Positions 575-26,965 of a stretch of DNA of 46,266 nucleotides are shown here, piece after piece (the first letter of the stretch is position 1; every line of letters starts with the position of its first letter). Source of the DNA: a virus. Taxonomy: Duplodnaviria > Heunggongvirae > Uroviricota > Caudoviricetes. The stretch lies in the IMG/VR virus record IMGVR_UViG_2671180743_000008; one strand, given 5' to 3'. The notes under the pieces are model-generated. The model was given only the letters and a program-made list of their open reading frames with translations. It had not been told where the DNA came from and made no database searches. Both the position numbers and the translations under genes were made by a program.

Positions 575-1324
575 TCAGATGGTCGAAATCAGCATTCTGT
601 GACCTTCGATATCCAGACGGCGAAAATTCATCCCATAGGCCTGCGCCAGATTTGGCGGCGTGAGCACCTCTTCTCTGCGTCCACTGGCCAGCATTTTTCC
701 ACCTTTTAGCAACCACGCCCGATGCGCATGACGCAATGTGTGGTTGAGATCGTGACTGCTCATCACAATCGCCAGTCCTTGCTGACACAGAGCGCTCAGA
801 ATTTTGTCTAACGCACTTTGTTGCGCAACATCAAGACTGTTCATCGGCTCATCAAGAAGCAGCAATTGGCCTGCGGGATTGGCTTGTGGTGTGATTTGCA
901 GCACCACCGCAGCAAGACGTACGCGTTGCCATTCACCGCCGGAAAGTTGATTGGTGCTACGTCCGAGTTTGTCATCAAGAGCCAGCGCCCCTGCGACATC
1001 ATTCAGTAGTTCGGTACGCGTTTTATCGTGCTGATGCAGTGTCAGATAGTGCCAGACCGGCATTGCAAACGGCGGCGTCTGCTGTTGTGAAAGATAGGCG
1101 CGATGCAGCGCGAGTTTTGTTGCGGACCATGCTTCCAGTGGTTGCCCCGCGAACTGAATACTTCCCTTACCGCTGGTCATTCCGGCCATTCGTGCCAGTA
1201 AGGTACTCTTACCCGCGCCATTCGGCCCCACCAGGTGCAGGATCTCCCCAGCCCGAACCTCGCCAGAAAGTGGCCCCAGGCGGGTAGATTCCGCAACATC
1301 CTGTAACTGCATCACAATAGACAT
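575..1324 (-). CDS. btuD: Vitamin B12 ABC transporter ATP-binding subunit
   Basis: 249 aa; Walker [13 protein letters not shown] signature LSGGEWQR, Walker B LLLLDEP; position between btuE and nlpC. Confidence 0.93.
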
Positions 1325-1875
1325 TATTTTGCCAACGCCAGTTTAATGCTTTCCATCACAATGGGGTCTTCCGGCGTCATATCCGGGGAAAAACGCTGGA
1401 TGACCAATCCGTCCCTGCCAACTAAAAATTTCTCAAAATTCCATAAAATATCATCAGGGTACAGCGGTGCACGACCTTTGCTGACCATACGGGCATAGAA
1501 TCCGCTCTCTTCCGGCGCGACTGCGGTCGGCGCTGCGGCAATCAATTTTTGATACAGCGGATGGCGTCCTTCGCCGTTAACTTCAATCTTACTGAACATC
1601 GGGAACGTCACCCCCCATGTGGTGGTACAGTAAGTTTTAATCTCTTCATCGCTGCCCGGTTCTTGTTCCAGAAACTGGTTGCACGGGAATCCCAGCACCA
1701 CAAAACCTCGATCGGCCCAGGCTTTCTGAATATTCTCCAACTGCTCATATTGCGGCGTTAAGCCACACTTTGAGGCGACATTGACAATCAACAGCACATT
1801 ACCGGCGTACTTCTCCAGCGTGGTCACTTCACCGTCGATATCTTTCACTACGGTCGTCAGAATGGAATCTTGCAT
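1324..1875 (-). CDS. btuE: Glutathione peroxidase-family protein
   Basis: 183 aa; GPx-type motifs ([18 protein letters not shown]); start overlaps btuD stop; canonical btuC-btuE-btuD order. Confidence 0.92.
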
Positions 1876-1937
1876 CGTTTCTCCTGGGTGTGGTCAGTAA
1901 AAATCTTAGCTTTTAATCATAGACCGTCTTTTTGCGG

Positions 1938-2918
1938 CTAACGTCCTGCTTTTAACAATAACCAGATAAACACCGGCGCACCCAACGTTGCGGTGACCAC
2001 GCCAATAGGCAGCTCTGCGGCAGCTAATGCCAGGCGCGCTACAATATCGGCCAGCAGCACTGCGCTCGCCCCTGCCAGCGCGCAGCCGGGAAGTAATACG
2101 CGATGATCGGTTAAACCACACAACCGAAGAATATGTGGGATCACCAGACCAATAAAGCCGATAGCACCCGCCAGCGCCACACTGACGCCAACCATCCAGC
2201 CGGTCGCTGCCACCAGCACATTGCGCCAGAACCACAGGGGTAAACCCAGTTGCCGCGCCGAGATCTCGCCAAGTGCTAACATATTCATCGGCCTGGACTG
2301 ACAACAGATCCACAACAACACGGGGATCAATGCCAGCATCAGCCAGCTTTGCCGCCAGTCTACGCCGCCAAAACCGCCCATCATCCAGTACATCAGCTGA
2401 CGTAAATCAACAGAGGTGGAAAAGTAGATAGCCCACGTCATTAGTGCGCTACAGATAATCCCTAATGCAACGCCAGCCAGCAATAACCGACTGGTCGAAA
2501 GATGACGACGGGCGAAACGTAAGAGTATTAAAGTGATGATAAGCGCGCCAGCAATCGCACACAGCCCTAGCGCCCAGTTGGGGAGTTGCCCTTGCCCAAG
2601 CAATACCGCGGCGATAAGCCCCACGCCTGCGCCGTTAGAGACGCCAAGTAGTCCAGGTTCTGCCAGAGGATTTTCAAACAACGCCTGCATTACAGCGCCG
2701 GATATAGCCAGCGCCGCACCAACCAGCAATACAGCCAGCGTACGTGGCAGGCGAATTTGCCAGACGAACAGTTCGCCACGAGGAGTAAACCAGTCACCTG
2801 GCGAAATCCATTGTTCACCGGCGCAAAGGCTTAAGAGAAGCGCCAGCAGCATCAAAACTGACAGGCATAATAACCAGCGAATATTTTGTCGCTGTTGTTG
2901 GCGGGCAAGTGTCAGCAT
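1938..2918 (-). CDS. btuC: Vitamin B12 ABC transporter permease
   Basis: 326 aa, highly hydrophobic multi-pass membrane protein of FecCD/BtuC type; first gene of the btuCED operon. Confidence 0.92.
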
Positions 2919-4151: not shown

Positions 4152-5129
4152 TTACATTCCTCCCAAGGGATTAAACCTCACCGCATCCTGCAAGTAATCC
4201 GGCGCAAGATGGGCATAAATCATCGTTGTCTGAATCTTTGCGTGCCCCAGAATTTTCTGGAGCGTCAGAATATTGCCGCCGTTCATCATGAAATGACTGG
4301 CGAAGGTGTGGCGCAGCGCATGAACAGCCTGGCCGTCAGGAACATCAGGTGCGACCGTTTTGATGACATCGCGAACCAATGAATAATCCAGCGTCGGAAA
4401 CACCAGTTTCCCGCCCCGTTTTTTGATCTTTTCAAACAGGCTTTCAGAAATAGGAACGGTACGGTTTTTGCTGTTCTTCGTTTTTGAAAAAGTGATTCGA
4501 CAATGAAGAACACGGCGCTGCTCCAGTGCCGCTACCTCGCCCCATCGCGCCCCGGTCGACAGAAGGATTTCGACGGCCAGCCGTTCATCGGGATTTTCAG
4601 CCAGTGCATCCAGCAACTGAACACATTCAGACTTACTCAGATATCCCATTTCACGCTCGTTAACCTTCATTCCTTTAAGGCCTTGAACGGGGTTATCGTT
4701 AAGAAAATGGCCGGATGAGATGAGTGCGGTAAACATCGCGCTTAACGCCCCAATCTCTCGATTTATGGTGCTGGGCTGTATCCCCTGCTCTATCCTGGAC
4801 ACACGTAGCTCGGTGAGCATCGTTGTATTAAGTTTATGCACGCACGGGTCATCCATTGCCTCACTCAAGCGCAGCAATTTAAGGCGCGTGTTATGCCCTG
4901 ACTTCATTAGCTGGCCGTGGTATTTCCACCACAAGTCAATAAGCACTGACAGCGGACGGCGATCAATGGAGTTTCCTTTCCACTCATTGTTATGCTGTTG
5001 CGCCAGCACCCACCGCTCATATAAAACTGCATCCGATTTCGTTTTAAATTTTTTGCGAATGCGTTTGCCTTTACGCCCCTCAGGACGCATGTCAAGAAGA
5101 TACCCTCCCGGAATTGATTTTATGCTCAT
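4152..5129 (-). CDS. int: P2-type tyrosine integrase
   Basis: Start chosen at MSIKSIPGG (the ORF track extends to 5279); catalytic-region motifs HALRHTFASH and LGHAKIQTTMIYAHL; C-terminus FNPLGG typical of P2/186 integrases. Confidence 0.9.
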   Translation of the reverse strand: MSIKSIPGGYLLDMRPEGRKGKRIRKKFKTKSDAVLYERWVLAQQHNNEWKGNSIDRRPLSVLIDLWWKYHGQLMKSGHNTRLKLLRLSEAMDDPCVHKLNTTMLTELRVSRIEQGIQPSTINREIGALSAMFTALISSGHFLNDNPVQGLKGMKVNEREMGYLSKSECVQLLDALAENPDERLAVEILLSTGARWGEVAALEQRRVLHCRITFSKTKNSKNRTVPISESLFEKIKKRGGKLVFPTLDYSLVRDVIKTVAPDVPDGQAVHALRHTFASHFMMNGGNILTLQKILGHAKIQTTMIYAHLAPDYLQDAVRFNPLGGM

Positions 5130-5178
5130 TCGTGAAGCCCCAGCGTTACAAGACCACCATGCCCCCAGCGTTCCATGA

Positions 5179-5490
5179 TTAGCCGGGCTGTGTGCCAGTC
5201 TTGCGGGATTTTTGAGAAGACGATGTGTTTTCTGGCCCATCAGGGGAGAGAGAAGGACTGATCTGCCCAGCAGCCTCATTTGTTTCGTTACTCATCAACC
5301 ACGTAGTGTATTTTTTAAATTCCGGGTGCATTGTGATTTTCAGTAAAACCTCCGTTCCCACACCTCGAATACCAGTCTCGTATTGCTTAACCGTACCAAC
5401 CGCAATACCTATTGAATCCGCGAACTTTGCCTGACTAAGCCCCTCAGATTCTCGAATTGCTTTTAGCTTCTTTGATATCTCTATTGACAT
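5179..5490 (-). CDS. C: P2 C-type immunity repressor (HTH)
   Basis: Start chosen at MSIEISKK (103 aa); HTH segment LSQAKFADSIGIAVGTVKQYETG; C-terminal ...SSSQKSRKTG resembles the P2 C C-terminus; upstream of and co-oriented with int. Confidence 0.8.
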   Translation of the reverse strand: MSIEISKKLKAIRESEGLSQAKFADSIGIAVGTVKQYETGIRGVGTEVLLKITMHPEFKKYTTWLMSNETNEAAGQISPSLSPDGPENTSSSQKSRKTGTQPG

Positions 5491-5878: not shown

Positions 5879-6217
5879 ATGCTGAAGCAACGCCGTAATT
5901 TTTGTACCGGAACAGAACGCCACGCTAACCGTTTCACTACCAGTGCATCACGCAGCAACATCCGCTACAGCCTGAGTGATACACACGCAACGCCGGATGG
6001 CTACCCAGTAAAACAAATCGGCGAGCACGCCTGGCTGATTGAGAAAGCTGGAATCGTGATCCACAAATGCCCACGCAATCCGTTTACCGGAAACCGCATT
6101 TTTGCACTGAGCTGTGGCGACAATCAGTTCGGGCAGGATTTCACATTATACGAAGCACTTCGCACGGTTGATCGTCTGCTTCGCGGGCAAAGTTTTATTA
6201 AACAGGCTGATTTATAA
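5879..6217 (+). CDS. Hypothetical early-region protein
   Basis: 112 aa ORF in the early operon; no family recognised. Confidence 0.5.
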   Translation: MLKQRRNFCTGTERHANRFTTSASRSNIRYSLSDTHATPDGYPVKQIGEHAWLIEKAGIVIHKCPRNPFTGNRIFALSCGDNQFGQDFTLYEALRTVDRLLRGQSFIKQADL

Positions 6218-6227
6218 CAGGTGCTTT

Positions 6228-6515
6228 ATGACCAAAGACAATGCACAAGGTGTATTTATCCGTTTTATTGATTTTCGCGGTGAACTGTTATTACGTGCAT
6301 CCGCTATTGACGGAGTGACTCCGGCGGGTAAAAACGGAGCCGACGAAGCCACTTACGTTTATCTGAACGGCACGCGACTGCTTGTGGAACTTCCGTACCA
6401 GACCGTACGAGAAATCATCAGCGAAGATGAAAAGGCACGCCAGGTTAATGGCGATGAACCCTATATCGAAATTATTTGTATGGATTCAGAAGCTGAAATA
6501 CAGAAAGCAGATTAA
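6228..6515 (+). CDS. Hypothetical early-region protein
   Basis: Start chosen at MTKDNAQGV (ATG at 6228) inside the track ORF 6114..6515; 95 aa. Confidence 0.5.
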   Translation: MTKDNAQGVFIRFIDFRGELLLRASAIDGVTPAGKNGADEATYVYLNGTRLLVELPYQTVREIISEDEKARQVNGDEPYIEIICMDSEAEIQKAD

Positions 6516-6523
6516 AGGGCGTT

Positions 6524-6769
6524 GTGATGGGCAAAGAATATAAAACTCTCATTAACAAAGCACTTGAGCGTTTTTATTTTCGCTTAAGTGCATCAGGCGC
6601 TCATGCTGAACGTGCGGCCCGTGACTCATTGACCAGAGCAATCCGAAGTCTGTATGACGTGGCTTTTTACGCTGATGATCTGGATGCACTTAACGAACTT
6701 TCCGAGCTGATCTGTGCCGCAGAATGCGGGGAACATATTGAACCGTATAAGCTGGGAAATATCGCATGA
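6524..6769 (+). CDS. Hypothetical early-region protein
   Basis: 81 aa ORF packed tightly after the previous gene. Confidence 0.5.
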   Translation: MMGKEYKTLINKALERFYFRLSASGAHAERAARDSLTRAIRSLYDVAFYADDLDALNELSELICAAECGEHIEPYKLGNIA

Positions 6770-6879
6770 GTATATTTATTTCATGGCTTGTTCTGATTAT
6801 TTCGGTGGTCTGCGCCATTGGGATTATGCGAATTATTAATTCAGTAAAAAAGATTGAACGCTTTTTCACTGAAGAATAA
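6766..6879 (+). CDS. Possible small membrane protein (37 aa)
   Basis: ATG at 6766 overlaps the previous stop (ATGA); translation MSIFISWLVLIISVVCAIGIMRIINSVKKIERFFTEE is one hydrophobic helix; too short for the ORF track. Confidence 0.3.
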   Translation: MSIFISWLVLIISVVCAIGIMRIINSVKKIERFFTEE

Positions 6880-6965
6880 CCGCGCAAATAAGACCCCAGG
6901 TTAAATAAGAAAATGTGAAAACAATCCGCATTCGCGGAGGTATTCGCACACGCCAAGGAGGCGTA

Positions 6966-7169
6966 ATGGCAATTAAGCATTTTCCTGTCGTTCGTTTCAC
7001 CTCCAGAGGACGTGAATACGAAGTTGACGAACGCCTGATTACCACAATCGACAAACACCGTTCAGAAAAGGATGCACATCATATCTATCTCACTGACGGC
7101 ACTTACTTCTGCGCCACCAACGTGGTGCAGGTGAATCTTATCAGACAGGTACAGGAGTCACGCAGATGA
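6966..7169 (+). CDS. Hypothetical early-region protein
   Basis: Start at MAIKHF, preceded by GGAGG; 67 aa. Confidence 0.5.
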   Translation: MAIKHFPVVRFTSRGREYEVDERLITTIDKHRSEKDAHHIYLTDGTYFCATNVVQVNLIRQVQESRR

Positions 7170-7411
7170 CCATTCTGGACTACATCGCTGCCAATCCGGG
7201 TTGTAGCAGTGGAGAAATCGCCGCAGCACTGAATACACCAACCACAACCATTAATGCGGAGCTACGCCGTCTCTGGCGCAGCGGTTTAGTCACAAGAAAA
7301 GAGCGCAAAACAGGCGGTCGCTTTTCTTATCAGGTAAACCTGATGCCGTTTGGGTGTAGCAACCCACTAACCCAGATGTTCAACCAGCTACTGAGGGAAA
7401 TCAGAGCATGA
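7166..7411 (+). CDS. Small winged-helix DNA-binding protein
   Basis: 81 aa; SSGEIAAALNTPTTTINAELRRLWRSGLV looks like a wHTH recognition helix and wing; start overlaps previous stop. Confidence 0.55.
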   Translation: MTILDYIAANPGCSSGEIAAALNTPTTTINAELRRLWRSGLVTRKERKTGGRFSYQVNLMPFGCSNPLTQMFNQLLREIRA

Positions 7412-7552
7412 GCACCTCCAACTGCCGGAAACCACGTCGGGCTTCAGCAGCTCATCCGGCAGCAAAACAAACTCCATTAATTCCTGTTCCGGGCCTTTCC
7501 TGCACCTTGCGGCGGGAGGCCTTCGCACATCTGTAACAAGAGGATTGCCGCA

Positions 7553-7918
7553 ATGATTCTCGCCAACGACTTTCTTGAATACCTGCTCAACACAGAGCGT
7601 GATCTTGCCGCTCGCGTGCGTGATCGTTATGACATGTACCTGAAATCCCTGCCTGTACCGCAGCTCGCTGACGGAAAGATTGTTATTGATGGTCGCTACA
7701 TGATTGACAGCCACGAGGGAAATTACAGGCTTTACCGCATTGAAGGTGGCACCCCGTCCGTTATTGGCATTTACCAGCGCCCATCCTCTGCAATCGTCGA
7801 TGTGATTGCCGACAGCATCCGCATCACACATCGCCATGCCGACACAGAAGACACCGTGCTGGAAATTCAGCGGCTGGCTACAGTCTGCCGCGACACCCTG
7901 AATGGCATGACGAAGTAA
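7553..7918 (+). CDS. Hypothetical protein upstream of replication gene A
   Basis: 121 aa ORF; no family recognised. Confidence 0.5.
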   Translation: MILANDFLEYLLNTERDLAARVRDRYDMYLKSLPVPQLADGKIVIDGRYMIDSHEGNYRLYRIEGGTPSVIGIYQRPSSAIVDVIADSIRITHRHADTEDTVLEIQRLATVCRDTLNGMTK

Positions 7919-7924
7919 ATCACT

Positions 7925-10747
7925 ATGACGGCAGAGTACATCAGGGACTGGCAACAACCGCGCCACGCAGTGGGGCGTGAAGGAACGGGGATCCCCGCTC
8001 CTGAATCCGCGCTTTCCTCCTGGCTGGATGCCCACCGGGCAGAGAACGAGCGCCGCCAGGAAATGGCTGATGCGGCGTTCTCCGCCACGCCACTGGGCAA
8101 CCTGATTAATAAAAGCCTGGACGCACAGGAAAAACAGGACAAAACCATCACACTGGCAGGAGACGCCAGAAAACAGGCACGCGGCGCGGTGGATGAAGCC
8201 ATGGCCTCGCTGCGCCTGCTGCCGTCCTATCTGCGCGATCCGCTTATTCGCCACCTCTCCTTCCTGCGCAAAAAACAGGAAGCCGATCGCCGGAAAGGCA
8301 AAAAGAGCTGGCAGGCGGAACGCTATGCACGCGGAACCCTGCGCAAAATATTCGAACGTCTGGATCGCACTGACGGACACTGGCTGACACCGGGTTATCG
8401 CTCCCTTGCCGGACGTGAACGCCTGGACGATTTGCTTTACCTGCCGCAACTCAACAAACACCAGATACAGACGCTGGCCACCATGACGGCGGCGATGTTC
8501 AGCAGCACCTTCGAAAAACTCTGCGATGGTTTTGGCGCGACTGATGGCGAGCTGACCATGGATGTAACGCTGAAGGCGTATCAGATGCTGGCCCGCATGG
8601 CGTTACACTTACACGCCATGCCTCCGCATTATGACGCACTGACAACAGACAAAGACCGGAGGCACGAACCGGACACAGAACTGCTGCCGGGCGCAATCCT
8701 TCGCCTGACCTGTGCGGAATGGTGGAAACGCAAACTGTGGCTGTTACGTTGCGAGTGGAGAGAAGAACAACTTCGCGCCGCCTGTCTGGTTTCCAGAAAA
8801 ACATCGCCCTATCTGAGCCAGGACGCGTTAAGCGAGTTTCGCGCACAGCGCGAGAAAACACGCGATTTCCTGAAAAGTTTCATGCTGGAAAATGAAGACG
8901 GGTTCACGATTGATCTCGAGACGGTGTATTACGCGGGAGTAAGTAACCCGGTTCACCGTAAGGCAGAAATGATGGCCACCATGAAGGGGCTGGAACTTCT
9001 GGCCGAAGCCCGTGGCGACAAAGCGGTGTTTCTGACTGTCACCTGCCCGTCAAAATACCACGCCACAACGGAGAACGGTCATCCGAATCCCAAATGGAAC
9101 GGGGCCACAATGCGCGACTCCAGCGATTACCTGGTTAACACGTTTTTTGCGACGGTCCGCAAAAAACTGAACCGCGACGGCCTGCGCTGGTATGGCATCC
9201 GCACGGCGGAGCCTCACCATGACGGCACCGTGCACTGGCATATGATGGTCTTTGCTCATCCGGAAGAAATCGACACCATTGTGTCCCACACCCGCGATAT
9301 TGCCATTCAGGAAGATCGTCACGAGCTGGGCGATGACATAACTCCGCGCTTTAAGGCGGAGTATGTAGACGGCTCAAAAGGCACGCCAACCAGCTACATC
9401 GCCACCTACATCGGGAAAAACCTGGACAGCCGCGCCGTGGATGGCATCGACCCGAAAACGGGCAAGCCACGCGTTGACCACGAAACCGGAAAATCAATGG
9501 CCGAGAGCGTGGAACGCGCCATCGGCTGGGCGCGCCTTCACCGGGTCCGCCAGTTCCAGTTCTTTGGCATCCCCTCCCGCCAGGTATGGCGTGAACTGCG
9601 CCGCCTTGCCAGCCAGATGGCACGCAACCCGGAAGGCCCGCAACGGCTGAAGGATGACGCAATGGATGCGGTTCTTGCCGCCGCTGATGCCGGATGTTTT
9701 GCCACCTACATAGAGAAACAGGGCGGCGTACTTGTTCCACGCAAAGACTACCTGATTCGCACCGCCTACGACCTCGCCGATGAGCTGAACGATTACGGCG
9801 AACAGAGCGTACAGATTTACGGGATCTGGTCACCACTCATCGGGGAATCCTCCCGTGTGTGCACGCATCCGGATAACTGGAAGCTGGTAAGACGCAAACC
9901 GGAAGCGGAAGACAGCGCCCGCGAAAATGGTTTTGACCTTCAGGGCGGCCCTGCCGCCCCTTGGACTCGTGGCAATAACTGTCCCCGTGTACAGGAAACG
10001 GACAACAACGGGACAGAACAGCCGGAAGAACGGCCAGCACCGTGGCCGCAGCTCCCTGACGGCGTTGATGTGGATGAATGGATGCGCTCACTGAAACGGC
10101 ACGAACGCCGGGCGCTGATGCGTTCGCTTCGTGACAAACAGGCAAAAAACAGCAGTGATGAAATGCAGAGCTGGACACAGAGCCGCAAACAGCAGCGGCC
10201 TTTGCCTGATAACCACGAATTACTCGCTAAAGAATGGCGGGAGTCTGCTGAATCTCTCGGCCTGCATATCGGTGAACAACAGATGCAGCACCTGTTACGG
10301 GGCGGCAGTCTGTACGTTGACGGCAGCATCATTGCACCGCAGGGATTTGAAATTGTACGCAAACCGGATACCCGCCCGGACAGCCGAATCACGCAGCTCT
10401 GGCAGCGCCTGAGCCGTAATCATGGCGTAAGCAGCACGGAGATCCGCCATAACCCGGTCGCCAGCTATCTGACACAGCTGGGGGCATCAGACCCTGAAGC
10501 CGCCGCACGCCTGGCATCCACACTTCAGCAGGACCAGAACACCATGAAAACACCCGTTACCGTGCTTTCTGACATGCTGCGCGCCATCCGCGACGCAGAG
10601 CACGCACAGAGAATCAGTGAAACCACTGAACGCGCCCGCCGCAAAGCAGACCTGCTGCGGGGTGGCCTGACCAGTGGAAACAAAAAACAGACAGAAACGG
10701 GACTCACGAATCCCGTAAATGAGCAAAAAACGCGCAGCGATATATGA
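7925..10747 (+). CDS. A: P2 gpA-type rolling-circle replication initiator (endonuclease)
   Basis: 940 aa; HUH-type motif VHWHMMVF and tyrosine pair YIATYIGKN as in P2 A; longer than the P2 protein as I recall it, with a charged C-terminal tail. Confidence 0.85.
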   Translation: MTAEYIRDWQQPRHAVGREGTGIPAPESALSSWLDAHRAENERRQEMADAAFSATPLGNLINKSLDAQEKQDKTITLAGDARKQARGAVDEAMASLRLLPSYLRDPLIRHLSFLRKKQEADRRKGKKSWQAERYARGTLRKIFERLDRTDGHWLTPGYRSLAGRERLDDLLYLPQLNKHQIQTLATMTAAMFSSTFEKLCDGFGATDGELTMDVTLKAYQMLARMALHLHAMPPHYDALTTDKDRRHEPDTELLPGAILRLTCAEWWKRKLWLLRCEWREEQLRAACLVSRKTSPYLSQDALSEFRAQREKTRDFLKSFMLENEDGFTIDLETVYYAGVSNPVHRKAEMMATMKGLELLAEARGDKAVFLTVTCPSKYHATTENGHPNPKWNGATMRDSSDYLVNTFFATVRKKLNRDGLRWYGIRTAEPHHDGTVHWHMMVFAHPEEIDTIVSHTRDIAIQEDRHELGDDITPRFKAEYVDGSKGTPTSYIATYIGKNLDSRAVDGIDPKTGKPRVDHETGKSMAESVERAIGWARLHRVRQFQFFGIPSRQVWRELRRLASQMARNPEGPQRLKDDAMDAVLAAADAGCFATYIEKQGGVLVPRKDYLIRTAYDLADELNDYGEQSVQIYGIWSPLIGESSRVCTHPDNWKLVRRKPEAEDSARENGFDLQGGPAAPWTRGNNCPRVQETDNNGTEQPEERPAPWPQLPDGVDVDEWMRSLKRHERRALMRSLRDKQAKNSSDEMQSWTQSRKQQRPLPDNHELLAKEWRESAESLGLHIGEQQMQHLLRGGSLYVDGSIIAPQGFEIVRKPDTRPDSRITQLWQRLSRNHGVSSTEIRHNPVASYLTQLGASDPEAAARLASTLQQDQNTMKTPVTVLSDMLRAIRDAEHAQRISETTERARRKADLLRGGLTSGNKKQTETGLTNPVNEQKTRSDI
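10694..10719. repeat. Palindromic element copy 1 (AACGGGAcTcacGAATCCCGTAAA)
   Basis: Imperfect palindrome ACGGGA...TCCCGT inside the 3' end of gene A; a near-identical copy lies 73 bp downstream. Confidence 0.6.
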
Positions 10748-10766
10748 AGCGCGCACAAAACAGGCA

Positions 10767-10793
10767 AAAACGGGATTTCAGAATCCCGTAAAC
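10767..10793. repeat. Palindromic element copy 2, immediately upstream of parM
   Basis: AAAACGGGATTTCAGAATCCCGTAAA between the gene A stop and the parM start; possible operator or centromere-like site. Confidence 0.6.
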
Positions 10794-10823
10794 GATTAAT
10801 TAATCAACATAAGGAAAAGCGAC

Positions 10824-11783
10824 ATGAAAATTTGTATCGACGACGGCTCCACCAACATCAAGCTGGCATGGACTGAGAACGGCGAACGCCGCAACGCCAT
10901 CAGCCCGAACAGCTTCAAGTCGGAATGGTCTGCGCCGTTCGGTGGCATGCAGCCCGCGAACTACATGCTTGATGGCGTGCGCTATGGTTTTGATCCGGTC
11001 AGCGATCGCTTTGTCCAGACAACCGACACGCAATACCAGTACAGCGATGTAAATGTCATTGCCATTCATCACGCGCTGGTCAAATCAGGCATCACGCCAC
11101 AGGAGGTGGATGTGGTTGTCACCCTGCCACTGAGCGAGTATTTCGACACAAACGCACAGCCGGACATGGCCAACATCAACCGCAAAAAAGCGAACGTTAT
11201 GCGCCCGGTGGAGTACCAGAACGGCGAAGCATTCACTATCCGTAACGTGCGGGTTATGCCTGAATCCATTCCGGCTGGCTTTAAGGCACTGGCTGACATG
11301 AGTCCGTTTGAATCCCTGCTGATTGTGGATTTGGGCGGAACCACGCTGGATGTGGCAAAGGTTCAGGGGCAACTGGCAGGTATCAGCCAGGTGTTTTGCG
11401 ATCCACACGTAGGCGTTTCTCTGATGGCCGATGCCGTACTGTCGGTGATGGCCACTAACGGTATGCGCACCAGTCACCACATCGCCAATACCATTATCGA
11501 ACATCGCCATGATGAAGCCTGGCTGCGCCAGCACATCCACAATGACGCGCATTACGCCAGCCTGATGGCGGTTATTCGTGAAAAGGAAGAAACACTGAAA
11601 CAACGCGTGATCCGCGCGCTGGCGGGTTTTTCGGGTTACGGGCGGGTGATGGTTGTCGGTGGAGGGGCGGAGATTGTGGCACCCGCTATCCGCGAAGCCT
11701 GCGGAGTTAATGCGACTTTCATCGCGGACGGGGTGCCACAGTTTGCTCTGGTTAATGGGCTGTACGCAATGGACAAGGAGTAA
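10824..11783 (+). CDS. parM: ParM/StbA-family actin-like partition ATPase
   Basis: 319 aa; N-terminus MKICIDDGSTNIKLAW, internal YSDVNVIAIHHAL, VMPESIPAG, LIVDLGGTTLDVA, GVSL, FSGYGRVMVVGGGAE and C-terminal LVNGLYA all line up with plasmid R1 ParM as I recall it. Confidence 0.85.
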   Translation: MKICIDDGSTNIKLAWTENGERRNAISPNSFKSEWSAPFGGMQPANYMLDGVRYGFDPVSDRFVQTTDTQYQYSDVNVIAIHHALVKSGITPQEVDVVVTLPLSEYFDTNAQPDMANINRKKANVMRPVEYQNGEAFTIRNVRVMPESIPAGFKALADMSPFESLLIVDLGGTTLDVAKVQGQLAGISQVFCDPHVGVSLMADAVLSVMATNGMRTSHHIANTIIEHRHDEAWLRQHIHNDAHYASLMAVIREKEETLKQRVIRALAGFSGYGRVMVVGGGAEIVAPAIREACGVNATFIADGVPQFALVNGLYAMDKE

Positions 11784-11787
11784 ACCA

Positions 11788-12099
11788 ATGACGACACCAA
11801 CCAGACGGATAAGTTTCTATCTGAAGCCTGCGGCCGTCAAGAACGAAAGCGAAGCATGCGCCTGGCTGGGCAGCCTTACACCAGAAGCCCGCAAAAGCGG
11901 CCAACGCGTGGCTTTTCTGGCCGGGCTGGCACTTCTGAAAATGAATCCAGCAGAGGCTTACCGACTGGCTGCATGGGCTGACGATGAGGCGTTATCGGTG
12001 ACACAAACCAGGACAGAACGCCCCGTGCCACAGCCAGTACCAACCGCACAGATAACCAGTCAGATAGCAGGGAATATCCGGGCATTATTTCCTGAATGA
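11788..12099 (+). CDS. parR: ParR/StbB-like partition adaptor
   Basis: Start at MTTPTRRISFYLKP, 5 nt after the parM stop; N-terminal ribbon-helix-helix-like segment and C-terminal LFPE resemble R1 ParR; follows parM as in the parMR operon. Confidence 0.65.
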   Translation: MTTPTRRISFYLKPAAVKNESEACAWLGSLTPEARKSGQRVAFLAGLALLKMNPAEAYRLAAWADDEALSVTQTRTERPVPQPVPTAQITSQIAGNIRALFPE

Positions 12100-12159
12100 C
12101 GAATTTGACGGCTTTTAATTTTATCGGGGTGCACTGTCGCCCCGCACGAGGAAAACACG

Positions 12160-12684
12160 ATGAAAAAATACGAATACATGCTAATGAAAGAAGCACTGCG
12201 GGCTGGTCTGGCTCCCTGTCCTGTATCCGTAGAAGCTGTTGTTGGGAACACGATTTTCCGAACGCTGCGAAATCGCGTATCCGTGAAGATGGTTCACCAA
12301 CCACCCAAATCTACCAGCATGATCTATCTGCCGCTGCCCGAGGCTATCAAACTTATGCGTTCGCTGAAATTTGCGATTTGGATGCAGACACAAATCAACA
12401 AAGCGGTGCAAAACACCTTCGTTAAGAGACTAATACCGGAGCTTGCTGCCAGATGTGCAAAATGTACCAGACCCGCACTTCAATTTGATCTGTCATTGAT
12501 TCAACAAGCTACGGAGGCAGAACTGTACCGCCTGTCACCTATCCGTGATGCTCACACGGAAGCATCAGAAATGTTCCGGCTCATGTTTCAATTTAATTTT
12601 GCCGTTCGACGCACACGCGTTCAGGTCAATCGCATGATGCAGGAGCAGGAAGAGTTAACACAGTACAAAGGGGGCAGCCAGTGA
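12160..12684 (+). CDS. Hypothetical protein (hotspot cargo)
   Basis: 174 aa; good RBS (GAGG) upstream; no family recognised. Confidence 0.55.
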   Translation: MKKYEYMLMKEALRAGLAPCPVSVEAVVGNTIFRTLRNRVSVKMVHQPPKSTSMIYLPLPEAIKLMRSLKFAIWMQTQINKAVQNTFVKRLIPELAARCAKCTRPALQFDLSLIQQATEAELYRLSPIRDAHTEASEMFRLMFQFNFAVRRTRVQVNRMMQEQEELTQYKGGSQ

Positions 12685-12920
12685 GTAATTCAGCACGACT
12701 ACAGCTTGGTTTTTCACCGCTATCAAAAACCATCGTATTGGCAAAAATGCGTGACTTAGGAGACGGAACAAAACGCCGCGTAGGAAATGATCGCGGTCGC
12801 GATGTAACCAACGAGGCCGCTCAACTCGTTTGGCATCTAGTCATGGCAGAAGGCGGTGAAATTAATTGGGAGCTGGATGATGGTTCTCGTATGATTTTGA
12901 GGGCCGAGAAGAGTAAATAG
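12681..12920 (+). CDS. Hypothetical protein (hotspot cargo)
   Basis: 79 aa; start overlaps the previous stop by 4 nt, suggesting translational coupling. Confidence 0.5.
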   Translation: MSNSARLQLGFSPLSKTIVLAKMRDLGDGTKRRVGNDRGRDVTNEAAQLVWHLVMAEGGEINWELDDGSRMILRAEKSK

Positions 12921-12934
12921 CTCAAGGGGGATTA

Positions 12935-13120
12935 ATGCTAAATGATGATGAAGAAGAGCTGCTTATGCAGGAATGGTCGCTCGGTGATTATGATAATGGT
13001 GAAAATGGGTGCCCGCATTGTGGCCGTTATCGTTTATGTATCTGCCAGAATGGAAAACACAGATGTGAAAAGTGCAATTGGTCTCCGGAACTTAATGACT
13101 ACGTGCCGATCGAGTGGTAG
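12935..13120 (+). CDS. Small cysteine-rich (zinc-finger-like) protein
   Basis: 61 aa; acidic N-terminus then CPHCGRYRLCICQNGKHRCEKCNW (four Cys pairs). Confidence 0.5.
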   Translation: MLNDDEEELLMQEWSLGDYDNGENGCPHCGRYRLCICQNGKHRCEKCNWSPELNDYVPIEW

Positions 13121-13160
13121 AGGTAAGTCACACTAGGTGTTTTTTAGTTGATTTTATAAA

Positions 13161-13190
13161 TGCACAATAGTGCACAAATTTGCACAATTT
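13161..13190. repeat. Three TGCACAA direct repeats at exact 10-bp spacing
   Basis: TGCACAAtag TGCACAAatt TGCACAAttt, directly after the last early-region ORF in the non-coding gap that should contain cos. Confidence 0.6.
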
Positions 13191-13611
13191 TTTTGAACGA
13201 CTTTTTGCCCTTCCGGCCCGCGTGGCGGCTGGATCCGTCAAGGATCCGTGCATGCACAAAAAAACGCGTTTTTTCTGCGCGCAGGTGACGGGGGAACAGC
13301 CCGCGTTTCAGGGGGTAAATAGCATTCCCTGAACGATGTCGCAGAGATACAACAGAATGGCTGTATTTCTCACGCTGAGCGTGAAAAAGACGTGAGGGCT
13401 TTTGATTTGATGGGGTGAAAGGTAAGGCCGTCAAAATCGCACTGAGACGGCGAGAATATGCAGTCAACGAGGTGGGATTGCGTAAGAGTCTGACTGTCGA
13501 TGATGGCAATCAGCAGGAAAGCGTCGTGAAATTATCTGACTGATACAGGAGCTGGAGAGTCGGGGCATAAATTTTTTATGCCCCGGCGAAGCAGCAGACA
13601 AGCGAAGCGCG

Positions 13612-14658
13612 TCAGGATGTGGGCTGGGTGTCTAACAGTGCGTAAGGGTTAAAGCGGATCACCTCTTCGCCAAGCCAGTCATTGATGTGCTTCATGGCCT
13701 CCATGACGGGCATCAGCTCGTTAATTGCGTAAACCCGCGCGGCCTTCTCCACATCACCAAACGCACTTTTTTCGCCCGGCATCGCCCCCATCAGTTGCGG
13801 CGGAACGCGGTGCGCAGCCAGCACATCATCACGGGATGCCGCCTTAACATTCATGAACTCATCCTTTGCGGTGATCTGCTGGAACGGCAAAATTTGCACC
13901 CCCTCTTTGCCCCCGTTGGGCGCATGAATGAGCACGTTTTTAAACGCACCACCACCACGTGCCCCCTGTAGCGTTTCTTTCAGGGAGTCCATGCTTTCGC
14001 GGTTTACCTGCGCTGCACCGATGTAGATGATGCACCCGGCGTGGGATCCGTTGTCGTAGTACAGTTTTCTGAACATGTCCGCCGAATGAGAAAGGCTGGC
14101 CGAGAGTAATGCGCCAAGATATTCCGGCATGCCGTAGATTTCCTGGTTAATATCCGGATTCATCAGGTGGCACACTTTGCCAGGACGAAACTGAAACGCA
14201 TCCTTGCCATCCTGCACATACCACCATGATTCAAGATCGCTTCCGCGTCGCATGTATTTCGCCAGGGCGTGCCGTAATTTAAGCGGTTCGCCGAGCATAT
14301 TGCTCCGAAGCTCAAGGAATGCGTTACCGAACACAAACCAGTCCAGCGCCAGCGCCGAGAAATCCTGCCGGGAAAGCAGCGGGTGCGGAATATAGCAGCC
14401 GAGCAATACATTGCGCTTAAAGTAAAGCGCAGACTGATGCCAGGACGTTTGCCGGGCAGCTCTTGCCAGACCGTACCAGTCCACCGGGGTTTCATACCAC
14501 CGCCCGTTATCAGCACAGTACATATTGTCCAGCAGGTCATGCCCGGTCAGGCGGTAAGGACCATCAAATGTGAATGCACTGAGCGACGATTCTTTCCTGA
14601 GCGCATCAGCGAGATCAATGCGTGAACTCATGCGCACTTTTTTATTTTTTCTGCTCAT
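13612..14658 (-). CDS. Q: Portal protein
   Basis: 348 aa; size and position match P2 gpQ; transcribed leftward with P. Confidence 0.85.
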   Translation of the reverse strand: MSRKNKKVRMSSRIDLADALRKESSLSAFTFDGPYRLTGHDLLDNMYCADNGRWYETPVDWYGLARAARQTSWHQSALYFKRNVLLGCYIPHPLLSRQDFSALALDWFVFGNAFLELRSNMLGEPLKLRHALAKYMRRGSDLESWWYVQDGKDAFQFRPGKVCHLMNPDINQEIYGMPEYLGALLSASLSHSADMFRKLYYDNGSHAGCIIYIGAAQVNRESMDSLKETLQGARGGGAFKNVLIHAPNGGKEGVQILPFQQITAKDEFMNVKAASRDDVLAAHRVPPQLMGAMPGEKSAFGDVEKAARVYAINELMPVMEAMKHINDWLGEEVIRFNPYALLDTQPTS

Positions 14659-16409
14659 CAGAACTCCATAACCGTGAAACGCTCGTTTTCTCCTTCGCCG
14701 CCAATCGGTTCGTTAATGACAGCAAGCATGGTTGCCCACGCAAGGTCGCCGTGGCTGATCCCCCTCGCGCGGTCCGTTTCGTAAGTGATAAAACCGCCCG
14801 GTGTTTTCACCTTACGCACGGCGTTAAAGGCCGCAACCAGCTCGCGTTCGGCGCGATCGTATTCCCACCGCCCGGCACGCATTATTTGCAGCATTTTCAG
14901 TACCAGCGACCGTTTTGATGACAGCGTGAAGGTGTAAGGGATGGCGGCGGGAAAAAACCGTTTCACTATCTGATAGACGGCATCCCCGTGCCCTCCCGTC
15001 GCATCAATGCCGATGTGTTCCACGTTGTAGCGATACGTGAACTCTTCAATAACTCTGGCCTGCTCTTCAAATTCCAGCCCCTGAACGCGTCGCGTCTCCA
15101 CCGTTCTGAAACGACCACCAGGAACAGCCGGAGGAACCACCACGGACACAGCGCCGCTGTCGCCGTTACCACTGCTGCCGTTTGCGTCATACCCAATCCA
15201 TACCGGACGATTCCCCATCGGGCGGGGGGCAAAGGGTTTCCAGTCTTTCCAGTCGTCGTATCCGTCAACACCGCAGCCAATCAGGATATTCAGGTTAAAT
15301 GCCGATTCCCCTTCGCGGACAAACTCACACATATAGAGATTGCGGAACTCGTCTTCGGTGTTTTCATCACGAATTTCATCAATATCGGTGTGTTTCCAGC
15401 CGTGATTAACCACATCTTCCAGCGTGACAATTTGCCGCCACGTCCGGTCAGGGCAGATAAGCCCGTTATGCAGCGTTTTCCAGTCCACAGAAAAACGCTG
15501 GCGTTTATGCGCGGCCTTTTTCTCGTTCCAGCGGTCGCCGTTCCAGTAGGCGTATGCCTCGTGCGTTTCGGTGGATGGCGTGGAGAAGCAGGTGCGCCGC
15601 AGTCCGCTGAGGGTTGCCATAGCGCCAGCCACCTTGCGCAGTTCAGCAAAGCGACTGACCCAGAAAAATTCATCAAAATAAAAATTGCCCGTGTAAGATT
15701 GCGCCGTCGCAGCAGAAGTGCCGAGAAAATGCATCTCTGCGCCGTTGGAGAGGATGATTTTATCGCCCCCTTTCAGCTCCACATCGACTTCAGCCGCGGC
15801 CTTCTGAATAATGCTTTTAAACTGGAACGCCTGACGACGCGACGCAGACAAAAAAATCTGGTTACGCTGGTAAGGTTGTGCCACATCGTCACGCAGCGCC
15901 ATCAGCAGTGCTTCCTGTGCAAAATACCAGGTCGCCCCAATCTGTCGGGATTTCAGGATCATCCTGTTACGTATCCCGGCTTCCCTGCAAAGCGTCAGGG
16001 AGTCAAACCAGCCCCGCTGATGCCACTCCAGCCTGCTGATGATTTTTTCCCGCAGTGCGGCAATCTGTTCCGGCGTGAAATGATTTTTGAGTTTTTTCGC
16101 CCGGCCTTTCTTTCCTGTGGCCGTCGCATCCGGCTGGCCATCATGCAGTTTTTTAAGCTGCCGGGTCAGCAGGTCTATTTCCTTAAAGTCACCACCTGTT
16201 TTATTCTGTTTTTCAGTAAGCTGGATGAGGCGCGCATCGATGGACTGCGTGACACGCTGCACGGGTGGCGTTTCATCCCACTGGTCGCGTTTTTTCCACG
16301 CATAAATCGTGTTCGGGTTTATTCCCATCAGACGTGATATTTCTGCGGGCGGATAACCCTGCCAGTAAAGTTGCCGCGCACGCTGGCGCACAAAAGCGTC
16401 CTGAATCAT
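14658..16409 (-). CDS. P: Terminase large (ATPase) subunit
   Basis: 583 aa; N-terminal HTH-like region, Walker A-like GKKGRAKK; start overlaps the Q stop; matches P2 gpP position. Confidence 0.85.
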   Translation of the reverse strand: MIQDAFVRQRARQLYWQGYPPAEISRLMGINPNTIYAWKKRDQWDETPPVQRVTQSIDARLIQLTEKQNKTGGDFKEIDLLTRQLKKLHDGQPDATATGKKGRAKKLKNHFTPEQIAALREKIISRLEWHQRGWFDSLTLCREAGIRNRMILKSRQIGATWYFAQEALLMALRDDVAQPYQRNQIFLSASRRQAFQFKSIIQKAAAEVDVELKGGDKIILSNGAEMHFLGTSAATAQSYTGNFYFDEFFWVSRFAELRKVAGAMATLSGLRRTCFSTPSTETHEAYAYWNGDRWNEKKAAHKRQRFSVDWKTLHNGLICPDRTWRQIVTLEDVVNHGWKHTDIDEIRDENTEDEFRNLYMCEFVREGESAFNLNILIGCGVDGYDDWKDWKPFAPRPMGNRPVWIGYDANGSSGNGDSGAVSVVVPPAVPGGRFRTVETRRVQGLEFEEQARVIEEFTYRYNVEHIGIDATGGHGDAVYQIVKRFFPAAIPYTFTLSSKRSLVLKMLQIMRAGRWEYDRAERELVAAFNAVRKVKTPGGFITYETDRARGISHGDLAWATMLAVINEPIGGEGENERFTVMEF

Positions 16410-16563
16410 TGCTCCCCCTGAGTAATTACAGGAAGATTACCCGCGCGCGAAACCGTTCTCCTTAACCCCCTGTTCTGGCCGTTTTCTTACAACAAAAGCC
16501 CTTTGTATCAGCCTGTTACGCTTTGCCATCATGACTGAAGAACCAGTCAGAGGGGCAAAAACT

Positions 16564-17400
16564 ATGGCTAATGAAAAAAAGACATCCCGCAAAAAGTTTC
16601 GCGTGGCTGTCTCCGGATCAACTGTTGATGGCCGTGAAATCAGTCCGGTGCATCTGCGTGAAGCCGCCGAGAACTTCAACCCGGATGTTTACGCTGCCCG
16701 CGTGAACGTTGAGCACTATCTCTCGCCATGCCCGTCAAGCGAATTTTCCGCAATGGGCGATGTCACCGCACTGAGTACGGAAGACATTACGGAAGGTCCG
16801 CTGGCCGGACGTACTGCGCTGTATGCAGAAATCGAACCGACCGAGCGCATGAAGCAGCTTGTCGCGGACGGCAAGAAAATCTATTCCAGTATCGAACTGC
16901 ACCCGCAGTTCTCCGTTAACGGGCGCGCCTATCTGGTCGGGCTGGCGATGACCGACACCCCGGCAAGCCTGGGCACTGAGCGCCTGAAATTCACGGCACA
17001 GCAACGTCAGGCGGTGATGACGTTCAACAGTATCCAGGGTGAAGCACCGCTTATCTCCGAAGCCATCGAGTCTGAAATCATCGAAATGGCAGAACAACGC
17101 CAGGAAGAAGGCACCCAGTGGTTTAACCGCGTAATGGGGATTATTGGTCGTGGCCGCAAAGCGGATGACGCCAGTTTCTCCCGTATTCAGGAAGCGGTGG
17201 AAAGCGTCGCAACGTCACAGGCCGACATTATCGACCGTTTTAATGCGCTGGAAACACGCCATCAGCAGGACAGCCAGAAAATCACTTTACTGACCACGGA
17301 GCTGACAGCACTGAAGGAAAAACTGCGCACGCAGGACGGCGATCCGCAGAACCGGTTCACCGCAACGGGCGCAGCCTCCGACCAGCTGGCTGACTTCTGA
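16564..17400 (+). CDS. O: Capsid scaffolding protein
   Basis: Start at MANEKK; N-terminus KKFRVAVSGSTVDGREISPVHLREAAENFNPDVYAARVNVEH resembles P2 gpO; transcribed divergently from Q-P. Confidence 0.85.
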   Translation: MANEKKTSRKKFRVAVSGSTVDGREISPVHLREAAENFNPDVYAARVNVEHYLSPCPSSEFSAMGDVTALSTEDITEGPLAGRTALYAEIEPTERMKQLVADGKKIYSSIELHPQFSVNGRAYLVGLAMTDTPASLGTERLKFTAQQRQAVMTFNSIQGEAPLISEAIESEIIEMAEQRQEEGTQWFNRVMGIIGRGRKADDASFSRIQEAVESVATSQADIIDRFNALETRHQQDSQKITLLTTELTALKEKLRTQDGDPQNRFTATGAASDQLADF

Positions 17401-17423
17401 TAAGACAAAGGAGCAAATTTTTT

Positions 17424-18476: not shown

Positions 18477-18521
18477 TCAACTCACGGCGGGCATCATGCC
18501 CGCCTGTAACGGAGAGAAAAA

Positions 18522-19322: not shown

Positions 19323-19414
19323 CGACTGACCCCGTCAGCGGGCGGCGTGCGCGGTGTTCCGGTTTGGCTCCGTGACCGTTTACACCGCGCACCCACCGCC
19401 CGATTTTTTCAGGA

Positions 19415-23502: not shown

Positions 23503-23505
23503 ATC

Positions 23506-24925: not shown

Positions 24926-24927
24926 GC

Positions 24928-26964: not shown

Positions 26965-26965
26965 T

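What the first reader, a model, noticed from the sequence alone, without database searches (positions are those of the whole stretch)
10824..12099. Plasmid-type ParM/ParR partition pair inside an integrating P2-like prophage
The ORF at 10824..11783 aligns along its whole length with the R1 plasmid actin-like segregation ATPase ParM, and the next ORF resembles ParR. They occupy the slot after gene A where P2 carries accessory genes (tin/old as I recall). A type II partition system is unexpected in a phage that integrates through a tyrosine integrase. It could mean the element can persist as an episome, or that the module was captured and repurposed.
Basis: partly seen in the sequence, partly recalled or inferred. 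Interest (0 to 1): 0.65.

Follow-up and report, generated by a model that had tools for sequence, protein, structure and literature searches.

The report
ParM/ParR partition cassette in P2-like prophage
An integrated P2-like (P88-type) E. coli prophage carries an intact plasmid-style ParM/ParR DNA-segregation cassette, but this is a common, already annotated and already published feature of about a quarter of such prophages, and its function has never been tested.

Summary
ORF 10824-11783 is a full-length ParM with every actin-fold ATP motif kept. It matches R1 ParM in the PDB at E = 8.5e-93. ORF 11788-12099 is a ParR/StbB adaptor (PF10784, the family that also holds R1 ParR). The pair sits between replication gene A and the portal gene of a chromosomally integrated P88-like prophage.

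It is not new. Near-identical DNA occurs in 1308 of 5426 complete E. coli genomes and is annotated there as ParM. Rousset et al. [quoted passage not shown]

- These ParM/ParR pairs form a clade of their own. Relatives at 54-63% identity sit in the same slot in Plesiomonas, Hafnia, Serratia and Enterobacter prophages. Plasmid ParMs are at most about 52% identical.
- The genes are under strong purifying selection (parM pN/pS 0.055).
- A candidate two-site centromere lies upstream of parM and is conserved across three genera.
- The phage has no plasmid replicon, and 1454 of 1456 copies are chromosomal.

The cassette most likely partitions the transient circular phage genome rather than maintaining a permanent plasmid prophage. 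That role is inferred, not shown.

The parts
10697..10716 (.). Candidate parC site 1. This is the palindrome ACGGGACTCACGAATCCCGT (GGG-N10-CCC core at 10699-10714). It sits in the first 42-nt direct repeat (10681-10722), inside the 3' end of gene A.
   Evidence: the pattern occurs exactly twice in the 46-kb window, against 0.01 expected by chance; the same two-site layout appears in the Plesiomonas and Hafnia relatives; the arms are largely kept in 85 close relatives while the centre varies.
10770..10789 (.). Candidate parC site 2. This is the palindrome ACGGGATTTCAGAATCCCGT, in the second 42-nt repeat (10754-10795). It lies 73 bp from site 1 and 35-54 nt upstream of the parM ATG, where it could overlap a weak promoter.
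   Evidence: spacing is 73, 72 and 73 bp in three genera, and at most 15 of 5000 shuffles reach this in each.
10795..10816 (+). Conserved ATTAATTAATCAAC...AAGGAA block. It may be a -10-like element plus the parM ribosome-binding site.
   Evidence: The TTAATCAA..AAGG block is shared by the window, L083 and L084 upstream regions. No consensus sigma-70 promoter was called here, so the promoter assignment is only an inference.
10824..11783 (+). parM: actin-like segregation ATPase, 319 aa.
   Evidence: Pfam; phrog_691; R1 ParM structures, 8.5e-93; intact at 319 aa in 85 of 85 close loci; pN/pS 0.055.
11788..12099 (+). parR: centromere-binding adaptor, 103 aa. It has an N-terminal DNA-binding domain in the ParR/StbB family (TRRISFYLKP), a hypervariable linker, and a conserved C-terminal tail NIRALFPE.
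   Evidence: PF10784, 2e-23; phrog_2515; same family as R1 ParR; the tail motif is shared with the R1 ParR C-terminus; pN/pS is 0.14 for the N domain, 0.52 for the linker and 0.05 for the tail.
7925..10747 (+). Gene A: rolling-circle replication endonuclease (context). Its 3' end contains parC site 1.
   Evidence: Phage_GPA, 6.6e-131; phrog_91.
12160..13120 (+). Variable cargo of the A-Q hotspot (context, not part of the partition cassette). It holds three small ORFs of 174, 79 (DUF7446) and 61 aa.
   Evidence: no PADLOC hit; homology to P88 stops at about 12097 and resumes at 13159.

Best explanation
This is a complete, selectively maintained type II (ParMRC-type) DNA segregation cassette. 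It belongs to a lineage specific to P2-like temperate phages (Peduoviridae; here a P88/Xuanwuvirus-type prophage).

Proposed mechanism, by homology with R1 ParMRC:
1. ParR dimers bind the two palindromic sites that straddle the end of gene A (candidate parC).
2. The conserved ParR C-terminal tail captures the growing ends of ATP-ParM filaments.
3. The filaments push two ParR-bound phage DNA circles apart.

The phage keeps integrase, C repressor and Cox. It has no plasmid-type replicon and is almost always found integrated. The substrate is therefore most likely the transient extrachromosomal circle. That form exists after infection and before integration, and after excision while gpA-driven rolling-circle replication makes monomeric circles. 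Partition would distribute these circles to both cell halves or daughters. This could reduce loss (abortive lysogeny) or organise replication, as shown for SrpMRC of SXT/R391 ICEs and AlpAC of prophage CGP3.

Shown here: the identity, intactness, conservation and selection of parM and parR, and a conserved bipartite cis element. Inferred: ParR binding to that element, the timing of expression, and the biological role.
For: Identity:
- ParM and ParR family matches, with all ATP-binding motifs kept.

Selection and intactness:
- ParM is intact in 85 of 85 close loci.
- parM pN/pS is 0.055. For parR it is 0.14 in the N domain, 0.52 in the linker and 0.05 in the C tail, which is the pattern expected for a DNA-binding head, a flexible linker and a ParM-binding tail.
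- The tail motif (K/R)xN(A/I)xx(L/F)(F/I)P aligns with the R1 ParR C-terminus.

Lineage:
- ParM relatives at 54-63% identity lie in the same gpA-parM-parR-...-portal slot in Plesiomonas, Hafnia, Serratia and Enterobacter P2-like prophages.
- No ParM at 52% identity or less is next to gpA.
- The plasmid collection has nothing between 60% and 95% identity.

Centromere candidate:
- Two GGG-N10-CCC palindromes lie 73, 72 and 73 bp apart upstream of parM in three genera, although the flanks differ. At most 15 of 5000 shuffles match this in each.
- The srpC centromere of SXT/R391 is similarly small, with four 13-bp repeats.

Transient rather than permanent episome:
- 1454 chromosomal places against 2 plasmid places in E. 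coli.
- The window prophage abuts host btuCED and keeps its integrase and HTH repressor (C); a Cox homologue is annotated in the relatives.
- The only replication gene in the annotated relatives is gpA.
- A true P2-like phage-plasmid in Arsenophonus instead carries RepA plus a ParA-like ATPase and has no integrase.

Expression:
- No + strand terminator-like site and no consensus promoter lie between gene A and parM. This fits co-transcription with the early replication operon.

Precedents:
- SrpMRC stabilises an integrating element that replicates by rolling circle.
- AlpAC is induced early and is needed for efficient prophage DNA replication.
Against: - No experiment exists for this cassette.
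- The candidate parC has only two palindromic sites, unlike R1's ten direct 11-bp iterons. The Serratia and Enterobacter relatives show a different repeat layout.
- Site 1 lies in coding sequence, so part of its conservation may be due to gene A.
- The timing of expression is inferred only from the absence of predicted signals.
- A weak ParR-controlled promoter active in lysogens is not excluded.
- One 34.5-kb circular 'plasmid' record is a whole P88-like phage. That would also fit longer-term episomal carriage.
Confidence: 0.55

Rival explanations
1. Permanent or alternative plasmid prophage. The cassette lets the phage persist for many generations as a low-copy episome instead of, or as well as, integrating.
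For: - A 34,461-bp circular record (NZ_CP148288.1) is a complete P88-like genome with parMR and int.
- The Plesiomonas relative sits on a phage-sized 32,167-bp contig that ends about 140 bp from int.
- ParMRC is a plasmid maintenance system in all its classical settings.
- Phage-plasmid D6 carries a ParM at 47.8% identity.
- The suggestion is in print.
Against: - 1454 of 1456 E. coli places are chromosomal, and a 99.9% identical copy of that 'plasmid' phage is integrated in another strain.
- P2-like phages without parMR also appear as phage-sized circular records, for example Enterobacter soli pENTAS02 with int. Such records therefore do not show partition-dependent maintenance.
- There is no plasmid replicon. 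By established P2 biology, gpA is expressed from the early operon that the C repressor shuts off in lysogens, so an immune plasmid state would have no replication.
- The real P2-like phage-plasmid has RepA and lacks int.
- Every relative whose left arm lies within the fetched sequence keeps a repressor and Cox, and int too where the locus reaches that far.
Confidence: 0.2
2. Repurposed cargo of the A-Q hotspot. Prophage-expressed ParR and ParM act on other DNA, for example by excluding or destabilising incoming plasmids or related phages through incompatibility, or by some other defence-like role. They would not act on the phage's own genome.
For: - The A-Q interval is a known hotspot for anti-phage systems.
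- The R1 iterons and the phage half-sites both contain a CCC core.
Against: - No PADLOC model matches either protein.
- The cassette lies on the conserved side of the hotspot boundary. Homology among P88-like phages runs through parR and breaks just after its stop.
- The candidate binding sites are on the phage itself, directly upstream, as in a self-acting par locus.
- The ParR N domain is only 31% identical to R1 ParR, so cross-binding to IncF parC is unlikely.
- The synteny is old across genera, unlike the fast turnover of hotspot cargo.
Confidence: 0.08
3. Non-functional relic of a past plasmid-phage recombination.
For: None beyond the unusual combination of a partition cassette with an integrase.
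Against: - 85 of 85 close loci have an intact 319-aa ParM, and pN/pS is 0.055.
- The cassette is conserved in four other genera at 54-63% identity, with parR always adjacent.
Confidence: 0.02

Closest known systems
ParMRC (StbA/StbB) of plasmid R1/NR1, the archetypal type II partition system
   Same: - Same gene order, parC-parM-parR.
- ParM aligns over its full length and keeps all nucleotide-binding motifs.
- ParR is in the same Pfam family, and the C-terminal tail motif is similar.
   Different: - ParM is only about 50% identical by eye from the alignment. Plasmid ParMs in general reach at most about 52%.
- The ParR N domain is 31% identical.
- The candidate centromere has two 20-bp palindromes 73 bp apart, not ten direct 11-bp iterons flanking a promoter.
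- The host replicon is an integrating rolling-circle phage, not a theta-replicating plasmid.
SrpMRC of SXT/R391 integrative conjugative elements (Carraro et al. 2015, PMC4489591)
   Same: - An actin-type partition module on an element that normally sits integrated through a tyrosine recombinase.
- The element replicates its excised circle by rolling circle from an HUH-type nickase.
- The centromere is small, with four 13-bp repeats.
- The module is shown to act on the transient plasmid-like form.
   Different: - SrpM and SrpR are only distantly related to R1 ParM and ParR, and SrpR has no recognisable ParR domain. The phage pair is a clear ParM/ParR homologue.
- SrpMRC is on an ICE, not a phage.
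- The function of the phage cassette is untested.
AlpAC of Corynebacterium glutamicum prophage CGP3 (Donovan et al. 2015, PMC4446434)
   Same: - An integrated prophage encoding an actin-like ATPase plus a co-transcribed adaptor that binds sites in its own upstream region.
- The genes are induced early and act on circular phage DNA.
   Different: - AlpC is not in the ParM/StbA family branch seen here.
- The host is an actinobacterium and the phage is not P2-like.
- The shown role is efficient replication, not inheritance.
Gene pair gp17/gp18 of Escherichia phage P88 (NC_026014) and PHROG families 691 and 2515
   Same: - Essentially the same genes: 98% DNA identity and 99.7% ParM identity.
- They are annotated 'plasmid segregation protein ParM' and 'partition protein'.
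   Different: Only the allele differs. The parR linker and the cargo downstream vary.
ParM (StbA-type) of the P1-like phage-plasmid D6
   Same: A phage-borne ParM homologue with 47.8% identity.
   Different: D6 is a 91-kb plasmid prophage, whereas the window element integrates and has no plasmid replicon.

Membership tests
Type II (ParMRC) partition system | An actin-fold ATPase of the ParM/StbA family with intact nucleotide-binding motifs | tested here: met
   Pfam StbA_N 2.7e-82 plus ParM C-terminal domain 1.3e-68. R1 ParM structures match at 8.5e-93 over the full length, with DDGST, MPES, DLGGTT and GGGAE kept. These residues are invariant in the phage clade.
Type II (ParMRC) partition system | A small ParR adaptor gene immediately downstream of parM, with an N-terminal DNA-binding domain | tested here: met
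   PF10784 at 2e-23, residues 6-76. R1 ParR hits the same family. BLASTP against R1 ParR gives E = 1e-07. The ribbon-helix-helix fold itself was not modelled.
Type II (ParMRC) partition system | A ParR C-terminal tail that binds ParM | tested here: inconclusive
   The tail motif aligns with the R1 ParR C-terminus and has the lowest pN/pS in the gene, 0.05. Binding itself cannot be tested with these tools.
Type II (ParMRC) partition system | A cis-acting centromere (parC) of repeated ParR sites upstream of parM, overlapping the promoter | tested here: inconclusive
   Two palindromes lie 73 bp apart, occur only here in the window, and share their layout with two other genera. There are only two sites, no consensus promoter was called, the Serratia and Enterobacter relatives differ, and binding is untested.
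Type II (ParMRC) partition system | Stabilises an otherwise unstable low-copy replicon | not testable with these tools
   Needs a plasmid stabilisation assay.
Phage-plasmid (plasmid prophage such as P1, N15, D6, or the Arsenophonus P2-like element) | A plasmid-type replicon usable in the lysogenic state, and residence as a separate replicon | tested here: not met
   The only replication gene in annotated relatives is gpA. There are 1454 chromosomal against 2 plasmid places. The window copy abuts host btuCED and carries int. By contrast, Arsenophonus paPv10 has RepA plus a ParA-like ATPase and no int.
Anti-phage systems of the P2 A-Q hotspot | Match to a known or candidate defence protein family | tested here: not met
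   There are no PADLOC hits for parM, parR or the three downstream ORFs.
P88-like Peduoviridae (Xuanwuvirus) | Collinear high nucleotide identity to phage P88 across the replication and morphogenesis genes | tested here: met
   Identity is 92-98% in blocks covering 5915-25532 and 37112-41763. The parMR region is 98.0% identical to P88.

The most novel reading that the evidence does not exclude
P2-like phages of this lineage use an actin-type spindle on their own monomeric DNA circles. ParMRC, co-expressed with the rolling-circle initiator gpA, would segregate pre-integration or freshly excised genomes to both daughter cells. This would measurably raise lysogenisation efficiency or prophage retention, or the yield of replication. 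Integrating phages would then have an actively partitioned 'transient plasmid' phase analogous to SXT/R391 ICEs, present in about a quarter of E. coli genomes.
Probability: 0.4. Interest if true: 0.55.

Novelty: already known. Interest (0 to 1): 0.3.

Why it matters
The cassette occurs in about 24% of complete E. coli genomes, yet nobody has tested what it does. If it partitions transient phage circles, it would extend the idea that integrating elements have an actively maintained plasmid-like phase from ICEs to a major family of temperate phages. It would also affect how lysogenisation efficiency and prophage stability are modelled. As a finding from a genome scan it is ordinary. The genes are correctly annotated in public records and the plasmid-maintenance idea is already in print.

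Tried and rejected
- **Recent capture from a known plasmid: rejected.** tblastn against 72,556 plasmids shows no ParM between 60% and 95% identity. The records at 95% or more are prophage copies.
- **Defence system: rejected.** There are no PADLOC hits.
- **Pseudogene or relic: rejected** on intactness and pN/pS.
- **Solved structure for ParR.** The search found no hit at E <= 1.
- **Close viral contigs.** A search of IMG/VR with ParM returned only 99-100% identical copies, useless for footprinting. Diverged relatives had to be reached through the protein search and contig look-ups.
- **Genome-contig scan.** The peptide-pattern scan gave only 45 loci, most of them plasmid ParMs.
- **Does the strain with the 34.5-kb circular phage record also carry an integrated copy?** This could not be answered. 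That strain is not in the E. coli genome collection, and the best hit was another strain at 99.9%.
- **Enrichment of parMR among phage-sized circular P2-like 'plasmid' records.** None was evident. About two of the more than 20 phage-sized records listed (of 75 matching records, 60 shown) carry the P88-type cassette.
- **Literature.** Searches for a functional study of the P88 or P2-like ParM found none.
- **** failed on a term shorter than three characters.

Full report
**1. What is in the sequence**

The ORF at 10824..11783 (+, 319 aa) matches both halves of the ParM fold. Pfam gives StbA_N at 2.7e-82 and the ParM C-terminal domain at 1.3e-68. It aligns from residue 2 to 316 with the crystal-structure sequence of R1 ParM (1mwk, E = 8.5e-93).

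The phosphate-binding and catalytic motifs are all present: IDDGSTNIK, MPES (R1 E148), DLGGTTLD (R1 D170) and GGGAE. They are invariant in an alignment of phage-clade relatives.

The following gene most likely starts at the ATG at 11788, four bases after the parM stop and behind an AGGAG. The mechanical ORF starts earlier, at a TTG at 11653. Its 103-aa product matches PF10784 at 2e-23. I recovered R1 ParR from a locus whose ParM is 100% identical to the PDB sequence, and it hits the same family at 2.7e-30. The two N-terminal domains are 31% identical (E = 1e-07).

PHROGs already holds both proteins as 'partition protein' families 691 and 2515.

**2. Context**

- Gene A (7925..10747, Phage_GPA) ends 76 nt before parM.
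- Portal Q (13612..14658, -) and terminase P (14658..16409, -) follow after three small ORFs.
- On the left lie host btuD, btuE and btuC (575..2918), a tyrosine integrase (4152..5279, -) and an HTH repressor.

The element is therefore integrated. The window ends inside the prophage, so the right junction was not seen. The window is collinear with phage P88 at 92-98% identity, except for the cargo after parR and an expanded tail-fibre region.

**3. How common it is, and whether it is known**

The 1.6-kb region has near-identical matches as follows:

| Collection | Result |
|---|---|
| Phage records | 14 records (P88, P884B11, 520873, Shae_phiSM and others) |
| Complete E. coli genomes | 1308 of 5426; 1454 chromosomal places, 2 on plasmids; annotated as ParM plus a plasmid partitioning/stability protein |
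| Plasmid records | 7 records; most are very large records holding an integrated copy, and one is a 34,461-bp circle that is the whole phage with its integrase |

Rousset et al. 2022 analysed exactly this A-Q interval. I found no functional study.

**4. A clade specific to P2-like phages**

Against 72,556 plasmids, ParM identities are either at least 95% (prophage copies) or below 60%. The best true plasmid ParMs are about 52% identical. In the phage collection, the only homologue besides P88-like phages is the phage-plasmid D6, at 47.8%.

The large protein search found intermediates at 54-63% identity. Every one that I traced lies in a P2-like prophage, in the same gpA-parM-parR-...-portal-terminase order:

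| Host genus | ParM identity |
|---|---|
| Plesiomonas | 63% |
| Hafnia | 62% |
| Serratia | 58% |
| Enterobacter | 54% |

In a tblastn screen of 51 loci, all ParMs at 54% identity or more had gpA nearby (where the locus extends that far upstream) and a detectable ParR relative, with portal and terminase where the locus extends that far. None of the ParMs at 52% or less did. The association with P2-like phages is therefore old and is not a recent plasmid capture.

Within the P88 group, homology runs through parR and breaks just after its stop. The cassette thus lies on the conserved side of the hotspot, and the truly variable cargo in this window is 12100-13158.

**5. Evidence for function from selection**

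All 85 close loci carry an intact 319-aa ParM. Pooled Nei-Gojobori estimates are:

| Region | pN/pS |
|---|---|
| parM | 0.055 |
| parR N-terminal domain | 0.14 |
| parR linker | 0.52 |
| parR last 11 codons | 0.05 |

ParR exists in several allele families. They share the N-terminal TRRISFYLKP strand region and the tail NI(R/Q)a(L/F)FP but have unrelated linkers. The tail aligns with the C-terminus of R1 ParR (KKNAMKLIN). From my recollection of the R1 literature, that C-terminus is the ParM-binding peptide. This is the pattern expected of a working adaptor.

**6. Candidate centromere**

Two 42-nt direct repeats (10681-10722 and 10754-10795) each contain the palindrome ACGGGA-N8-TCCCGT. The pattern occurs only at these two places in the 46-kb window, against 0.01 expected by chance. 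Site 1 lies inside the last codons of gene A. Site 2 lies 35-54 nt before the parM ATG.

The Plesiomonas and Hafnia relatives also have exactly two GGG-N10-CCC palindromes, 72 and 73 bp apart, at the same distance from parM. Their flanking sequence is different, and in Hafnia the upstream gene is different too. At most 15 of 5000 shuffles match this in each case.

The 73-bp spacing is about seven helical turns, which would put both sites on one face of the DNA. That is an inference. The Serratia and Enterobacter relatives show a different arrangement of GGG-containing inverted repeats.

This is not the R1 layout of ten direct 11-bp iterons around the promoter. It is similar in scale to srpC of SXT/R391, which has four 13-bp repeats. 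Binding by ParR is not shown.

**7. Expression**

The consensus scan found no sigma-70-like promoter and no + strand terminator-like site between gene A and parM. The most plausible terminator-like site after the cassette is at 13170-13185; weaker + strand candidates lie inside parM and inside the DUF7446 ORF. A TTAATCAA..AAGG block before the ATG is conserved across genera and could be a weak -10 element plus the ribosome-binding site.

The simplest reading is transcription together with the early replication operon. A possible autoregulated promoter cannot be ruled out. This is inference only.

**8. Permanent plasmid or transient circle**

Evidence against a permanent plasmid state:
- Copies are almost always chromosomal.
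- The phage in the 34.5-kb circular record is 99.9% identical to an integrated copy in another strain.
- P2-like phages without parMR also turn up as phage-sized circular records, for example pENTAS02 with int.
- The annotated relatives have no replication gene other than gpA.
- A genuine P2-like phage-plasmid in Arsenophonus has swapped the integrase for RepA and a ParA-like ATPase.

By established P2 biology, gpA is made from the early operon that the immunity repressor shuts off. An immune lysogen would therefore have partition but no replication.

Two experimentally studied integrating elements use actin-type modules on their transient circles:
- SrpMRC of SXT/R391, which also replicates by rolling circle from a nickase. 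It stabilises the ICE and a test plasmid.
- AlpAC of prophage CGP3, which is induced early and is needed for efficient replication.

I therefore favour action on the transient extrachromosomal form. The data cannot distinguish better inheritance or lysogenisation from better replication.

**9. Verdict**

The feature is already known and annotated, and its role is open. Interest is modest. The value added here is the phage-specific clade, the selection pattern, the candidate two-site centromere and the argument against a permanent plasmid lifestyle.

Noticed in passing
window 12160-13120: Three small ORFs follow parR: 174 aa with no family, 79 aa DUF7446/phrog_1578, and a 61-aa zinc-ribbon protein (phrog_24897). 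They fill the truly variable part of the A-Q hotspot. Homology to P88 breaks at 12097 and resumes at 13159. None has a PADLOC hit, and their function is unknown.
   Followed up: partly
window 11842 onward (parR), and loci L003-L091: parR occurs in several allele families. They share the first ~18 codons and the last ~8 codons but have unrelated linkers, while parM stays 98-100% identical. Some phages lose nucleotide homology to the window about 55 nt into parR. Linker pN/pS is 0.52 against 0.05 for the tail.
   Followed up: partly
window 24668-38830: The tail-fibre and invertase region is expanded relative to P88. 300-nt blocks repeat at 24668/32278 (100% identical), 25455/30821/33065 (90%), 35092/37133 and 36454/38531. 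This suggests duplicated or alternative tail-fibre cassettes.
   Followed up: no
window 3111-4149 (- strand): Two ORFs of 184 and 166 aa lie between host btuC and the phage integrase. One has only weak coiled-coil-type Pfam matches and the other has none. It is unclear whether they belong to the prophage end or to another island.
   Followed up: no
L090, L108, L109, L123: Several species-representative genomes carry enterobacterial sequence and are probably contaminated. 'Vagococcus sp. WN89Y' has a 98% identical P88-like prophage. 'Streptomyces morookaense' and a Clostridiales bin have contigs with R1-type ParM (100% and 99.7% identical to the PDB sequence), the Streptomyces one also showing R1 parC and ParR. 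A Lachnospiraceae MAG contig carries a ParM typical of enterobacterial plasmids (51% to the query).
   Followed up: no
L135 (Arsenophonus nasoniae plasmid paPv10, 33.8 kb): This is a P2-like phage genome that lacks an integrase. It carries a replication initiator protein A and an AAA ATPase next to the C/Cox switch, so it appears to be a P2-like phage-plasmid. Zymomonas mobilis 36-37 kb plasmids also carry a P2-type terminase in several strains.
   Followed up: partly
window 10729-10757: An imperfect GC-rich palindrome (GCGCAGCGATATATGAAGCGCGC) spans the gene A stop codon, midway between the two candidate ParR sites. Some alleles replace its centre with a different sequence. Its role, if any, is unknown.
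   Followed up: no
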